From: a virus
Lineage: Duplodnaviria > Heunggongvirae > Uroviricota > Caudoviricetes
Virus record (IMG/VR): IMGVR_UViG_2529292997_000011
Location: 1 to 19,442 of that record
DNA length: 19,442 nucleotides
Reading direction: 5' to 3' (one strand)
Part shown: piece after piece, positions 16,011 to 16,358 of the stretch
Numbering within the stretch: position 1 is the first letter of the stretch
Layout of the letters: each line of letters opens with the position of its first letter
Program-made: the position numbers and the translations under genes
The notes under the pieces: model-generated
Told to the model about the DNA's origin: nothing
Seen by the model: the letters and a program-made list of their open reading frames with translations, nothing else
Database searches by the model: none

Positions 16011-16085
16011 TGGAGCGGGCAGCGGGAATCGAACCCGCATCATCAGCTTGGAAGGCTGAGGTAATAGCCATTATACGATGCCCGC
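16011..16085 (-). tRNA. tRNA-Gly (anticodon UCC)
   Basis: Hand-folded reverse complement GCGGGCA-UC-GUAU-...-UCAGC-CUUCCAA-GCUGA-...-GCGGG-UUCGAUU-CCCGC-UGCCCGC-U-CCA. Acceptor and T stems fully paired, anticodon loop CUUCCAA, encoded CCA. Resembles E. coli glyT from memory. Confidence 0.85.
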
Positions 16086-16088
16086 ATA

Positions 16089-16164
16089 TGGTGCCGACTA
16101 CCGGAATCGAACTGGTGACCTACTGATTACAAGTCAGTTGCTCTACCTACTGAGCTAAGTCGGC
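16089..16164 (-). tRNA. tRNA-Thr (anticodon UGU)
   Basis: Reverse complement GCCGACU-UA-GCUC-AGUAGGUA-GAGC-A-ACUGA-CUUGUAA-UCAGU-...-UUCGAUU-...-AGUCGGC-A-CCA. Acceptor stem and anticodon stem perfect; one apparent mismatch in the T stem in my hand fold. Confidence 0.8.
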
Positions 16165-16166
16165 AC

Positions 16167-16243
16167 TGGACCGCCACCGGGGACTCGAACCTCGCACACT
16201 CAACTTAAAGGGTTGACGCTCTTTCCTGATGAGCTAGTGGCGG
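16167..16243 (-). tRNA. tRNA-like gene, non-canonical; anticodon UUU (Lys) if the standard register holds; possibly a pseudo-tRNA
   Basis: Reverse complement CCGCCAC-UA-GCUC-AUCAGGAAA-GAGC-G-UCAAC-CCUUUAA-GUUGA-GUGUG-CGAGG-UUCGAGU-CCCCG-GUGGCGG-U-CCA. Acceptor, D and anticodon stems pair, but position 33 is C rather than the near-invariant U, and the T stem has an A:C mismatch. Confidence 0.5.
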
Positions 16244-16244
16244 C

Positions 16245-16320
16245 TGGTGGCCCTTGCTGGATTTGAACCAGCGACCTGGCGATTATGAGTCGCTCGCTCT
16301 CACCACTGAGCTAAAGGGCC
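16245..16320 (-). tRNA. tRNA with anticodon CAU, tRNA-Ile2 (ileX-like) or elongator tRNA-Met
   Basis: Reverse complement GGCCCUU-UA-GCUC-AGUGGUGA-GAGC-G-AGCGA-CUCAUAA-UCGCC-AGGUC-GCUGG-UUCAAAU-CCAGC-AAGGGCC-A-CCA. Resembles E. coli ileX from memory but diverged. Separated from the neighbouring tRNA by 1 nt. Confidence 0.8.
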
Positions 16321-16329
16321 GGGAGCAGA

Positions 16330-16358
16330 ATAATAATGGTGCGTAATTAATTCTGCAA
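16330..16358 (-). promoter_or_regulatory. Near-consensus sigma-70 promoter driving the tRNA cluster
   Basis: Minus strand: TTGCAG (16358-16353), 17-nt spacer, TATTAT (16335-16330), about 9 nt before the 5' end of the first tRNA. Confidence 0.55.

What the first reader, a model, noticed from the sequence alone, without database searches (positions are those of the whole stretch)
16011..16358. Self-contained four-tRNA cassette whose anticodons all read A-ending codons
Four tightly packed tRNA genes (spacers 1-3 nt) have a near-consensus promoter (TTGCAG, 17 nt, TATTAT) and a dedicated terminator (15781-15803). The anticodons I read are CAU (Ile2-like, AUA), UUU-like (AAA), UGU (ACA) and UCC (GGA), all decoding A-ending codons. 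That fits a phage supplying tRNAs for codons used by its own or its cargo genes. In Stx-type phages a tRNA cluster occupies this same slot between Q and the lysis genes, from memory an Ile/Arg set (ileZ-argN-argO), so the composition here appears different.
Basis: seen in the sequence. Interest (0 to 1): 0.5.

Follow-up and report, generated by a model that had tools for sequence, protein, structure and literature searches.

The report
Four-tRNA operon in prophage late region
This is a real four-tRNA mini-operon in the late region of a common E. coli lambda-like prophage; three members are ordinary rare-codon helpers, and the fourth is a lysine tRNA built on an arginine-tRNA scaffold that may resist host tRNA-cutting defences.

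Summary
Four minus-strand tRNA genes (CAU 16320-16245, UUU 16243-16167, UGU 16164-16089, UCC 16085-16011) lie 1, 2 and 3 nt apart. A TTGCAG-17-TATTAT motif lies upstream and an intrinsic terminator downstream (15804-15789).

The cassette is common: its junction occurs in 817 of 5,426 complete E. coli genomes. It sits inside the Q-dependent late operon, between a lambda-like pR'/tR' and the holin. This is the slot that holds ileZ-argN-argO in Stx phages.

New detail:
- Thr and Gly are 100% identical to host thrU and glyT.
- CAU is identical to Stx-phage ileZ.
- "Lys" is a diverged argN (Arg-UCG) scaffold with a rewritten anticodon arm, compensatory stem changes and C33.
- A conserved ~185-nt three-hairpin trailer separates tRNA-Gly from the terminator.

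The codon-supply reading is only partly supported. AUA, ACA and GGA are 2-4-fold enriched over K-12, but AAA is not. Unserved Arg rare codons are enriched more, and cassette type does not track codon usage. The Lys tRNA differs from host tRNA-Lys at positions 39-41, where PARIS AriB recognises and cuts, so a counter-defence role is plausible but untested.

Verdict: a variant of a known kind, of moderate interest.

The parts
17992..18813 (-). Late antiterminator Q gene (273 aa)
   Evidence: PHROG 127/25523 'anti-termination protein Q-like', E 1e-110. Pfam PF03589 Antiterm, E 1e-50.
17947..17986 (-). Lambda-like late promoter pR': -35 TTGATT 17986-17981, -10 TAAATT 17964-17959, pause-inducing element AACGAT 17952-17947
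   Evidence: Alignment with lambda NC_001416 downstream of Q: GGTAAATTTG...AACGATGGG is conserved. The function is inferred from lambda pR' biology (established knowledge).
17888..17909 (-). tR'-like intrinsic terminator (CCCGCC GCCT GGCGGG + T7)
   Evidence: Terminator scan. The whole-window match to the closest E. coli genomes breaks exactly at 17909.
17566..17583 (-). Second terminator-like hairpin in the late leader, at the end of a small TrmB-like ORF (17570-17767)
16370..17419 (-). Orphan N6/N4 DNA methyltransferase immediately upstream of the cassette
   Evidence: PHROG and Pfam PF01555. PADLOC MTase_II. The same gene precedes ileZ in Stx2 phages.
16330..16358 (-). Cassette promoter candidate: TTGCAG (16358-16353), 17 nt, TATTAT (16335-16330), ending 9 nt before the first tRNA
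   Evidence: Sequence. One match against 0.10 expected. The motif and its spacing are conserved upstream of ileZ in several unrelated contexts. Similarity of several phages and genomes ends at about 16358-16365.
16245..16320 (-). tRNA with anticodon CAU, ileZ type (tRNA-Ile2, reads AUA after lysidine modification)
   Evidence: ARAGORN and Rfam 72.5 bits. It is 100% identical to Stx-phage ileZ and differs from K-12 ileX at 8 of 76 positions. It has C4-G69 and C5-G68. PGAP annotates it as tRNA-Ile.
16167..16243 (-). tRNA 'Lys' (anticodon UUU) on the argN scaffold. Features: loop CCUUUAA with C33, C1-G72, U73, A51.C63
   Evidence: ARAGORN and Rfam 44.4 bits. It differs from argN (UCG) at 15 of 77 positions, including three compensated base pairs. 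The window allele is the dominant one, 51 of 61 Lys-type copies. PGAP annotates it as tRNA-Lys in genomes with 100% identical sequence.
16089..16164 (-). tRNA-Thr (UGU), an exact copy of host thrU
   Evidence: 100% identical to K-12 thrU. Rfam 73.8 bits.
16011..16085 (-). tRNA-Gly (UCC), an exact copy of host glyT
   Evidence: 100% identical to K-12 glyT. Rfam 64.9 bits.
15828..16009 (-). Conserved structured trailer RNA of three hairpins at about 16009-15953, 15950-15881 and 15880-15828. The loop of hairpin 2 holds an invariant promoter-like TTGCAA-16-TACTAA.
   Evidence: MFE -80.9 kcal/mol, z -5.3. 11 of 60 pairs show compensatory changes across 9 divergent copies. It is always adjacent to the phage tRNA-Gly: 522 genomes with the junction, 517 with the trailer. 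No Rfam family matches, and only 21-45-aa ORFs are present.
15780..15804 (-). Intrinsic terminator closing the cassette unit, 61 nt upstream of the holin start
   Evidence: Terminator scan. Divergent trailer variants each end in a different, non-homologous hairpin plus T-run.
15504..15719 (-). Class II holin, first lysis gene downstream. YdfR/DUF1327, lysozyme and Rz follow at 15499-14088.
   Evidence: PHROGs. RefSeq annotation of a close homologue.

Best explanation
The locus is a compact tRNA operon: promoter, four tRNAs, a structured trailer and a terminator. It is nested as a module inside the Q-dependent late operon of a lambdoid (P27/HK97-type) E. coli prophage.

Expression (inferred). 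After induction, Q-modified RNA polymerase starting at the lambda-like pR' reads through tR' and the later terminators. It transcribes the methylase, the tRNAs and the lysis and structural genes as one unit. RNase P and 3' trimming then release the tRNAs. In a lysogen, the cassette's own promoter could give low-level expression. The terminator would stop that transcription before the holin.

Function of three members. Ile2 (CAU/ileZ), Thr(UGU) and Gly(UCC) add gene copies of low-abundance host isoacceptors. Their codons (AUA, ACA/ACG, GGA/GGG) are 2-4-fold over-used by the phage genes. This is a generic rare-codon boost.

Function of the fourth member. The UUU tRNA is not explained by codon supply. 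It is an argN-scaffold tRNA whose anticodon arm was rewritten to UUU. Its anticodon arm is unrelated in sequence to host tRNA-Lys. It most likely works as a lysine tRNA that escapes the nucleases that recognise the host tRNA-Lys anticodon arm, such as PARIS AriB, which depends on U39-C40|A41.

Shown here: gene identity, homologies, architecture, conservation and codon statistics. Inferred: transcription pattern, charging with lysine and nuclease resistance.
For: tRNA calls and scores.

Nesting in the late operon:
- Q is present.
- pR' resembles lambda's, including the pause element.
- tR' and two further terminators lie upstream of the holin.
- The same slot holds ileZ-argN-argO in Stx2 phages and in PhiR49_2.

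Modular unit:
- The promoter motif is conserved in unrelated upstream contexts.
- Similarity breaks just upstream of the -35.
- The trailer is always linked to the phage tRNA-Gly.
- Each trailer variant ends in its own terminator.

Host copies: Thr equals thrU and Gly equals glyT.

Codon enrichment: AUA, ACA, ACG, GGA and GGG are enriched; AAA is not.

The Lys tRNA is under structural selection:
- 97.2% of cells are paired, and three pairs changed on both sides relative to the Arg type; 0 of 500 shuffles reach the covariation score.
- The anticodon UUU and C33 are invariant in 61 copies, and the 7-nt loop shows a single C32-to-U change in one copy.

Nuclease determinants:
- AriB cuts C40|A41 within U36AAUC|A41.
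- U39A alone abolishes cleavage of E. coli tRNA-Lys, and T5 tRNA-Lys escapes through positions 39 and 41 (PMC12409363).
- The window tRNA reads U36 A A G39 U40 U41.
- tRNA-Lys(UUU) is also the target of PrrC170 and of a bacterial Schlafen. Phage tRNA-Lys rescues infection against PrrC170, while E. coli tRNA-Lys does so poorly (PMC11555353, PMC13056530).
- tRNA-Asn(GUU), which other lambdoid phages carry downstream of Q, is likewise unexplained by codon bias and is a PARIS target (PMC3636060; PMC12409363).
Against: - There are no expression, charging or cleavage data for any of these tRNAs.
- The Lys-type tRNA has unusual features that could reduce or abolish function: C33 instead of the near-universal U33, U73 instead of A73 (a LysRS identity element, from established knowledge), an A.C mismatch in the T stem, and the lowest covariance score (44 bits).
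- Its sister lineage carries 5-6-nt anticodon loops that cannot decode, so the slot can tolerate non-decoding variants.
- The Thr copy is host-identical. It keeps the AriB site and the P2-Old CNG motif, and over-expressed host thrU gave little or no protection from P2-Old (PMC12445682). The cassette as a whole is therefore not a resistant-tRNA set.
- Rare-codon enrichment is generic and does not track cassette type.
- The promoter matches only 8 of 12 consensus positions.
Confidence: 0.5

Rival explanations
1. Pure codon supply. All four tRNAs, including Lys, are there only to raise the supply of tRNAs for A-ending codons used by phage or cargo genes.
For: - AUA, ACA and GGA are enriched 2.3-3.7-fold over K-12 genes.
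- All cassette anticodons in both cassette types have U34 or lysidine-34 and read A-ending codons.
- A similar ACA bias was reported for phage SfI, which carries tRNA-Thr(UGU) downstream of Q (PMC3636060).
- Total Lys use is slightly higher in the phage genes (54 vs 46 per 1000).
Against: - AAA is not enriched (OR 0.70).
- E. coli already has several tRNA-Lys(UUU) genes; four (lysT, W, Y, Z) lie in one 2.5-kb stretch.
- AGA, AGG and CGG are more enriched yet unserved.
- Cassette type does not track codon usage in 61 vs 56 neighbourhoods.
- A supply role gives no reason to build Lys on a foreign scaffold rather than copy the host gene, as was done for Thr and Gly.
Confidence: 0.25
2. The UUU gene is a non-functional or non-decoding tRNA-like relic that hitch-hikes in the operon. 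The working cassette would then be Ile2-Thr-Gly only.
For: - It has the lowest covariance score (44.4 bits), C33, U73, C1-G72 and an A.C mismatch in the T stem.
- PGAP omits it in some close relatives (H31-H34).
- The sister lineage in the same slot has degenerate 5-6-nt loops, 15 different ones.
- phi467 carries only Thr-Gly.
Against: - Three compensated base-pair changes separate it from the Arg type, and the cloverleaf is 97% paired.
- The canonical 7-nt loop has A37 and A38, and the anticodon UUU is invariant in 61 copies.
- It is the dominant allele of its lineage and is present in hundreds of genomes.
- A.C alternates with G.U at the same T-stem pair, so this is a maintained wobble rather than decay.
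- PGAP calls it tRNA-Lys where the sequence is identical to the window.
Confidence: 0.15
3. The tRNA array and trailer mainly act as RNA-processing and insulation signals. RNase P sites and stable hairpins would cut the long late transcript between the methylase and the lysis genes, and the trailer might yield a regulatory small RNA. tRNA supply would be secondary.
For: - The genes are packed 1-3 nt apart and embedded in an mRNA operon.
- The trailer is a conserved, covarying structure with invariant loop motifs and its own terminator.
- A tRNA 3' trailer acting as an sRNA sponge is known in E. coli (glyW-cysT-leuZ 3'ETS; from my own knowledge, not checked here).
Against: - Exact conservation of the host thrU and glyT sequences and of ileZ argues for selection on tRNA function itself.
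- No data show processing or a stable trailer RNA.
- The trailer matches no Rfam family.
Confidence: 0.1

Closest known systems
ileZ-argN-argO tRNA cluster of Stx2-converting and other lambdoid phages (e.g. Stx2a_1447 AP012536, PhiR49_2)
   Same: - Same slot, downstream of Q (often after the same DNA methylase) and upstream of stx or the lysis genes.
- Identical first gene, ileZ.
- Same conserved TTGnnn-17-TATTAT motif 9 nt upstream.
- The second gene uses the same scaffold.
- A terminator closes the unit.
   Different: - The second gene reads UUU (Lys) instead of UCG (Arg), with 15 of 77 differences.
- argO is replaced by exact host copies of thrU and glyT.
- Spacers are 1-3 nt instead of 7-13 nt.
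- The terminator follows a ~185-nt structured trailer instead of lying about 12 nt after the last tRNA.
tRNA-Asn(GUU)/tRNA-Thr(UGU) genes downstream of Q in phages 21, SfI, Sf6, ST64T and PS3 (PMC3636060)
   Same: - tRNA genes lie in the late leader of lambdoid phages.
- Thr(UGU) is shared.
- ACA bias in the phage was reported.
- One member (Asn there, Lys here) is not explained by codon bias.
   Different: Different gene set and number. I did not compare those sequences here. HK639 carries a degenerate Asn-like tRNA plus a Gly 3' half in front of the same trailer.
Phage T5 tRNA-Lys(UUU), Thr(UGU) and Asn(GUU) variants that neutralise PARIS (PMC11464382, PMC12409363)
   Same: - A phage-encoded tRNA-Lys(UUU) differs from the host tRNA at positions 39 and 41, which flank the AriB cut.
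- A Thr(UGU) gene is present alongside it.
   Different: - T5 is virulent and carries a large tRNA region, whereas this is a temperate prophage with four genes.
- The Lys tRNA here is not a mutated tRNA-Lys but an Arg scaffold with a switched anticodon.
- The Thr copy is host-identical, so it is predicted to be cleavable.
- Resistance is untested.
Morons of lambdoid prophages (promoter-gene-terminator units inserted between late genes; concept recalled from the literature)
   Same: - Candidate promoter and terminator of its own.
- Sharp similarity boundaries.
- Present or absent, and swapped, among otherwise related phages.
   Different: The cargo is RNA genes rather than a protein gene, and it is co-oriented with and embedded in the late transcript.

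Membership tests
tRNA (Rfam RF00005) | Covariance-model score above the gathering threshold, and a cloverleaf fold | tested here: met
   72.5, 44.4, 73.8 and 64.9 bits against a threshold of 29. For the UUU gene's scaffold, 97.2% of cloverleaf cells are paired and three pairs are compensated.
tRNA (Rfam RF00005) | Canonical 7-nt anticodon loop with U33 and a purine at position 37 | tested here: inconclusive
   CAU, UGU and UCC genes meet it. The UUU gene has a 7-nt loop and A37 but C33 in place of U33.
tRNA-Ile2 (lysidine tRNA; ileX/ileY/ileZ) | Anticodon CAU with acceptor pairs C4-G69 and C5-G68 (TilS determinants, recalled from the literature), and similarity to ileX rather than to Met tRNAs | tested here: met
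   The acceptor stem is GGCCCTT/AAGGGCC. The gene is identical to the annotated ileZ and differs from K-12 ileX at 8 of 76 positions. PGAP annotates it as tRNA-Ile. I did not compare it with metT or metV.
tRNA-Ile2 (lysidine tRNA; ileX/ileY/ileZ) | C34 is actually converted to lysidine and the tRNA is charged with Ile | not testable with these tools
   Needs mass spectrometry or tRNA-seq of the modified base.
tRNA-Lys(UUU) | Anticodon U34-U35-U36 (the main LysRS identity element, established knowledge) | tested here: met
   The loop is CCUUUAA, and the anticodon is invariant in 61 copies.
tRNA-Lys(UUU) | Discriminator A73, and descent from tRNA-Lys genes | tested here: not met
   The discriminator is U73. 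The body is homologous to argN (Arg-UCG), not to lysT. The gene works like a Lys tRNA by anticodon only; charging is untested.
Stx/lambdoid late-region tRNA cassette (ileZ-argN-argO type) | Location between Q/pR' and the lysis (or stx) genes, with ileZ first and the conserved upstream promoter motif | tested here: met
Stx/lambdoid late-region tRNA cassette (ileZ-argN-argO type) | Gene content Ile-Arg(UCG)-Arg(UCU), with a terminator about 12 nt after the last tRNA | tested here: not met
   The content is Ile-Lys-Thr-Gly, and the terminator lies 207 nt downstream behind a structured trailer.
Defence-evading phage tRNA (T5 tRNA-Lys type) | Same anticodon as a nuclease-targeted host tRNA, with substitutions at the nuclease's recognition or cleavage positions | tested here: met
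   Host lysT reads U36AAUC|A41; the window tRNA reads U36AAGUU. Determinants are taken from PMC12409363. This is a sequence comparison only.
Defence-evading phage tRNA (T5 tRNA-Lys type) | Demonstrated resistance to cleavage, and rescue of infection or growth | not testable with these tools
   Needs in vitro cleavage and plating assays.
Moron (autonomous promoter-to-terminator insert) | Own promoter and terminator, and modular presence or absence | tested here: inconclusive
   The terminator pattern is met. The promoter is supported only by motif conservation. Modularity is met. No transcript data exist.

The most novel reading that the evidence does not exclude
The second slot of this cassette is an arms-race locus. 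One tRNA scaffold has its anticodon arm repeatedly rewritten.
- The UUU version would be a lysine tRNA that host or rival-prophage tRNA-Lys nucleases (PARIS AriB, PrrC or Schlafen type) cannot recognise. That would let a temperate lambdoid phage finish late translation in armed hosts.
- The sister versions, with 15 different 5-6-nt loops on an otherwise nearly invariant body, would be non-decoding decoys or inhibitors of such nucleases.
- The conserved trailer behind tRNA-Gly would be a co-transcribed regulatory RNA.
Probability: 0.25. Interest if true: 0.7.

Novelty: new variant of a known kind. Interest (0 to 1): 0.4.

Why it matters
tRNA genes between Q and the lysis genes of lambdoid and Stx phages have been attributed to rare-codon supply for decades.

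This cassette is present in about 15% of complete E. coli genomes. It shows two different origins side by side: exact copies of host minor tRNAs, and a scaffold tRNA whose decoding identity was switched from Arg to Lys.

The switched tRNA decodes an abundant codon that the host already serves with several tRNA-Lys(UUU) genes. It differs from host tRNA-Lys exactly where a known defence nuclease binds and cuts.

If it proves to be nuclease-resistant, tRNA-based counter-defence, so far shown mainly for large virulent phages, would extend to common temperate prophages. It would also explain the puzzling non-rare-codon tRNAs (Lys, Asn) in lambdoid late regions.

The experiments are simple: in vitro cleavage, rescue of plating, and tRNA-seq.

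Tried and rejected
- I first concluded that the trailer and terminator were an independent late-leader module, because HK639 matched it and has no annotated tRNAs. Reading the HK639 sequence showed a degenerate Asn-like tRNA and the intact 3' half of tRNA-Gly directly in front of the trailer. Genome counts then showed that the trailer is always next to the phage Gly. That conclusion was withdrawn.
Its only hit lies inside the tRNA genes and is host glyT sequence.
- Single-sequence MFE folding does not reproduce the cloverleaf for the UUU tRNA, but it fails for the host-identical thrU and for ileZ too, so it is uninformative.
- Comparing host thrU-tyrU-glyT flanks with the phage junctions, to find traces of capture, gave only 1-2 shared bases, which is uninformative.
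- Full-text searches for ileZ, argN and argO found nothing relevant in the held library. Statements about 933W rest on the GenBank annotation of a related phage and on my memory.
- I remembered a nuclease-resistant tRNA in the Gifsy-1 HepS story. The paper instead says that Gifsy-1 escapes through a non-triggering tail-tip variant, so I dropped it as a precedent.
- The Rfam E-value search of the trailer found no family.
- PADLOC and Pfam scans of neighbouring ORFs found no tRNA nuclease or other partner gene.
- A role as a prophage attachment-site tRNA was rejected, because the genes lie in the late region between Q and the holin, not next to an integrase.
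Full report
**Observation**

ARAGORN finds exactly four tRNA genes in the 19.4-kb window, all on the minus strand:
- CAU at 16320-16245
- UUU at 16243-16167
- UGU at 16164-16089
- UCC at 16085-16011

All four exceed the Rfam tRNA gathering score of 29 bits, with 72.5, 44.4, 73.8 and 64.9 bits. The spacers are 1, 2 and 3 nt, and all four encode CCA.

They match the consensus at 8 of 12 positions, so 'near-consensus' is too strong. The consensus scanner missed them. The relaxed motif occurs once in the window against 0.10 expected.

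The terminator is real by pattern: stem 15804-15789 plus a T-run. It lies 207 nt after the last tRNA.

**Context**

The flanking genes on the same strand are:
- RusA
- a 273-aa Q antiterminator (PHROG 127; Pfam Antiterm)
- a small TrmB-like ORF
- an orphan N6/N4 DNA methylase
- the tRNAs
- a class II holin, YdfR/DUF1327, lysozyme and Rz
- HNH, P27-type terminase and HK97-like head and tail genes

Directly after the Q stop codon the sequence aligns with lambda pR'. The -10 TAAATT (17964-17959) and the pause-inducing AACGATGGG are conserved. A strong terminator follows at 17909-17894, and another at 17583-17566.

The cassette therefore lies inside the Q-antiterminated late operon. From lambda biology I infer that Q-modified polymerase reads through all three terminators, including the one at 15804-15789, into the lysis genes.

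The window is 98.3% identical over 1-17909 to prophages of E. coli strains. The break falls exactly at tR'.

**How common it is, and what it resembles**

- The 801 bases around the cassette are at least 80% covered in 444 of 5,426 complete E. coli genomes.
- The ileZ-N-Thr junction is present in 817 genomes.
- Published phages PhiR47_1, vB_EcoS-689R5 and vB_EcoM-606R7 carry the cassette.
- PGAP annotates tRNA-Ile, -Lys, -Thr and -Gly.
- Among one genome per species, the Lys-type anticodon arm occurs only in E. coli and Shigella flexneri.
- In Stx2 phages and PhiR49_2 the same slot, often after the same methylase, holds ileZ-argN-argO.
- Stx phage phi467 carries only Thr-Gly plus the trailer, downstream of stxAB.
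- In IMG/VR contigs there are two main architectures. One is Ile-Arg(UCG)-Arg(UCU), with spacers of 7-9 and 13 nt. The other is Ile-Lys-Thr-Gly, with spacers of 1, 2 and 3 nt.

**Origins of the four genes**

- Thr is 100% identical to K-12 thrU, and Gly is 100% identical to K-12 glyT. Most phage copies elsewhere are also identical or differ by one base.
- The CAU gene is 100% identical to Stx-phage ileZ. By my count it differs from ileX at 8 of 76 positions. It has C4-G69 and C5-G68, the TilS determinants as I recall them. It is almost certainly tRNA-Ile2, reading AUA.
- The UUU gene is not related to host tRNA-Lys. It is a homologue of argN (anticodon UCG), with 15 of 77 differences. The loop changed from CUUCGAA to CCUUUAA, and the anticodon stem changed from CCAGC/GCUGG to UCAAC/GUUGA.

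On 36 distinct scaffold sequences the cloverleaf is 97.2% paired. Three pairs (7-66, 27-43 and 30-40) changed on both sides between the Arg-type and Lys-type lineages. None of 500 shuffles reaches the covariation score. The changes are lineage-wide, so they count as few events.

The Lys type has unusual features: C33, U73, C1-G72 and A51.C63. The last alternates with G.U in relatives.

The window's allele is the dominant one: 51 of 61 Lys-type copies. The anticodon and C33 are invariant in all 61.

**Is the unit self-contained?**

Upstream of ileZ, TTGnnn-17-TATTAT at a fixed 9-10 nt from the tRNA is conserved in several unrelated contexts. These include the methylase 3' end, two other sequence families, and a position directly after a terminator. 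The spacer sequence varies between them. Similarity of several phages and genomes to the window ends at 16358-16365, just upstream of the -35.

In the Ile-Arg-Arg type a terminator follows the last tRNA by about 12 nt in every context.

In the window type, tRNA-Gly is followed by a ~185-nt trailer that folds into three long hairpins (MFE -80.9 kcal/mol, z = -5.3). Across nine divergent copies, 11 of 60 predicted pairs show compensatory double changes with few broken pairs. Three loop motifs are invariant.

Each divergent trailer variant ends in a different, non-homologous hairpin plus T-run. This argues that termination at that point is itself selected.

I first thought the trailer was independent of the tRNAs, because HK639 has it and has no annotated tRNA. 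The HK639 sequence in fact holds a degenerate Asn-like tRNA and the 3' half of tRNA-Gly directly in front of it. In E. coli genomes the Gly-trailer junction (522 genomes) is as frequent as the trailer itself (517).

The unit is therefore promoter, four tRNAs, trailer and terminator. It is self-contained in layout and also nested in the late operon.

The trailer matches no Rfam family. Nothing is annotated on it in RefSeq. It holds only 21-45-aa ORFs.

**Codon-usage test**

I compared 5,463 codons of window genes with 14,832 codons of 42 K-12 genes.

| Codon | Window | K-12 | OR |
|---|---|---|---|
| AUA (of Ile) | 13.8% | 4.2% | 3.7 |
| ACA (of Thr) | 20.4% | 10.2% | 2.3 |
| ACG | - | - | 1.7 |
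| GGA (of Gly) | 22.7% | 7.8% | 3.45 |
| GGG | - | - | 2.8 |
| AAA (of Lys) | 66.6% | 73.9% | 0.70 |
| AGA | - | - | 4.4 |
| AGG | - | - | 6.1 |
| CGG | - | - | 3.45 |

AAA is not enriched.

Long ORFs around 61 Ile-Arg-Arg cassettes and 56 Ile-Lys-Thr-Gly cassettes (about 100,000 codons each) show nearly the same usage: ACA 0.266 vs 0.221, GGA 0.193 vs 0.179, AAA 0.657 vs 0.657, AGA 0.118 vs 0.099. ORF calling there was crude and covered only local neighbourhoods.

Three of the four tRNAs therefore fit a generic rare-codon boost. The Lys tRNA does not, and the cassette is not tuned to its phage. The AT-rich opposite-strand cargo ORF (13121-13660, GC 0.39, YfbU domain) has no special demand for these codons.

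**The Lys tRNA and defence nucleases**

[quoted passage not shown] It cuts between C40 and A41 within U36AAUC|A41.
- U39A alone abolishes cleavage of E. coli tRNA-Lys, and A41C strongly reduces it. T5 tRNA-Lys escapes through these two positions (PMC12409363).
- Host lysT reads U36-A-A-U-C-A. The window's UUU tRNA reads U36-A-A-G-U-U, so it differs at positions 39, 40 and 41.
- tRNA-Lys(UUU) is also the target of PrrC170. Phage tRNA-Lys rescues infection there, while E. coli tRNA-Lys does so poorly (PMC11555353).
- It is also the target of a bacterial Schlafen nuclease that cuts in the anticodon arm (PMC13056530).
- P2-Old, the classic anti-lambda system, primarily cuts thrU at a paired CNG motif in the anticodon stem. 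Over-expressed host thrU gave little or no protection (PMC12445682).
- The cassette's Thr copy is host-identical. It keeps both the AriB site and the CNG motif, so it is not a resistant variant.
- Other lambdoid phages carry Asn(GUU) and Thr(UGU) downstream of Q, and the Asn is unexplained by codon bias (PMC3636060).

These facts make a counter-defence role for the Lys member plausible. It remains inference, because no cleavage, charging or rescue data exist.

No nuclease or other partner gene was found in the window.

**An unexplained relative**

In the same slot of related cassettes, a sister lineage keeps the scaffold but has 5-6-nt anticodon loops. There are 15 different loops among 19 distinct sequences, while the other 68 positions have only 11 variable sites. 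These variants cannot decode normally.

They cut both ways. They may be decoys or products of diversifying selection. They may instead show that the slot tolerates non-functional genes.

**Verdict**

The cassette is a widespread, already annotated variant of the known lambdoid/Stx late-region tRNA cluster. Its layout and likely expression are ordinary.

The points of interest are:
- its mixed origin, with two exact host copies next to an anticodon-switched Arg scaffold;
- the predicted insensitivity of the Lys member to PARIS-type cleavage;
- the hypervariable sister loops;
- the conserved but undescribed trailer RNA.

I rate interest at 0.4 and novelty as a new variant of a known kind.

Noticed in passing
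window 15828-16009 (minus strand): A conserved ~185-nt three-hairpin RNA lies directly behind tRNA-Gly. It folds with z = -5.3, and 11 of 60 pairs show compensatory changes. The invariant loop motifs are CUGCGAUGAUGGG, UUUUUGCAAAAUUGCUGUG and GGGUGGUUUGUUGG. It matches no Rfam family and nothing is annotated on it in RefSeq. It may be a tRNA-trailer-derived small RNA.
   Followed up: partly
window 15897-15925 (minus strand), inside the loop of trailer hairpin 2: A promoter-like TTGCAA-16-TACTAA is nearly invariant across divergent trailer copies. If active, it would give a ~100-nt transcript ending at the 15804-15789 terminator.
   Followed up: no
related loci, e.g. L028, L035, L088, L093, L096, L105, L127 (second gene of the cassette): A sister lineage of the argN/Lys scaffold has 5-6-nt anticodon loops. 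There are 15 different loops in 19 distinct sequences, against 11 variable sites in the other 68 positions. ARAGORN gives them assorted or undefined anticodons.
   Followed up: partly
window 17947-17986 and 17888-17909 (minus strand): A lambda-like late promoter lies directly after Q, with the conserved -10 TAAATT and pause element AACGATGGG. A strong terminator follows. Similarity to the closest E. coli prophages ends exactly at 17909, a recombination boundary between the Q module and the late region.
   Followed up: partly
L131 (phage HK639, NC_016158) locus 2673-2828, minus strand: HK639 has unannotated tRNA relics between Q and the holin. One is a degenerate Asn(GUU)-like tRNA. The other is a tRNA-Gly(UCC) remnant whose 3' half is intact. 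The same trailer and a terminator follow.
   Followed up: yes
L004 (Stx phage phi467, LN997803) locus 3313-3466: In this Stx phage only the Thr-Gly-trailer half of the cassette is present, placed downstream of stxAB rather than upstream as the Ile-Arg-Arg set is in Stx2a phages.
   Followed up: partly
window 13121-13660 (plus strand): An AT-rich (GC 0.39), opposite-strand 179-aa ORF with a YfbU domain (Pfam E 3e-11) lies between the HNH/terminase genes and the lysis genes. It looks like a moron-type cargo gene of unknown function. PADLOC gives no hit.
   Followed up: partly
related loci L093, L054, L109: Further cassette variants exist. One has Arg(CCG) inserted between Thr and Gly with 1-nt spacers. 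Two others have a Val(AAC)-like call about 645 nt downstream of Gly.
   Followed up: no
window 16245-16320 and loci of both cassette types: ileZ is 100% identical in 97 cassettes of both types. The window combines the upstream flank typical of Ile-Arg-Arg cassettes with Lys-Thr-Gly downstream. This suggests that ileZ serves as a homologous-recombination anchor for swapping the downstream tRNAs.
   Followed up: partly
window 17566-17583 and 17570-17767 (minus strand): A third terminator-like hairpin overlaps the stop of a small TrmB-like ORF between tR' and the methylase. The late leader therefore carries at least three terminators before the holin.
   Followed up: no
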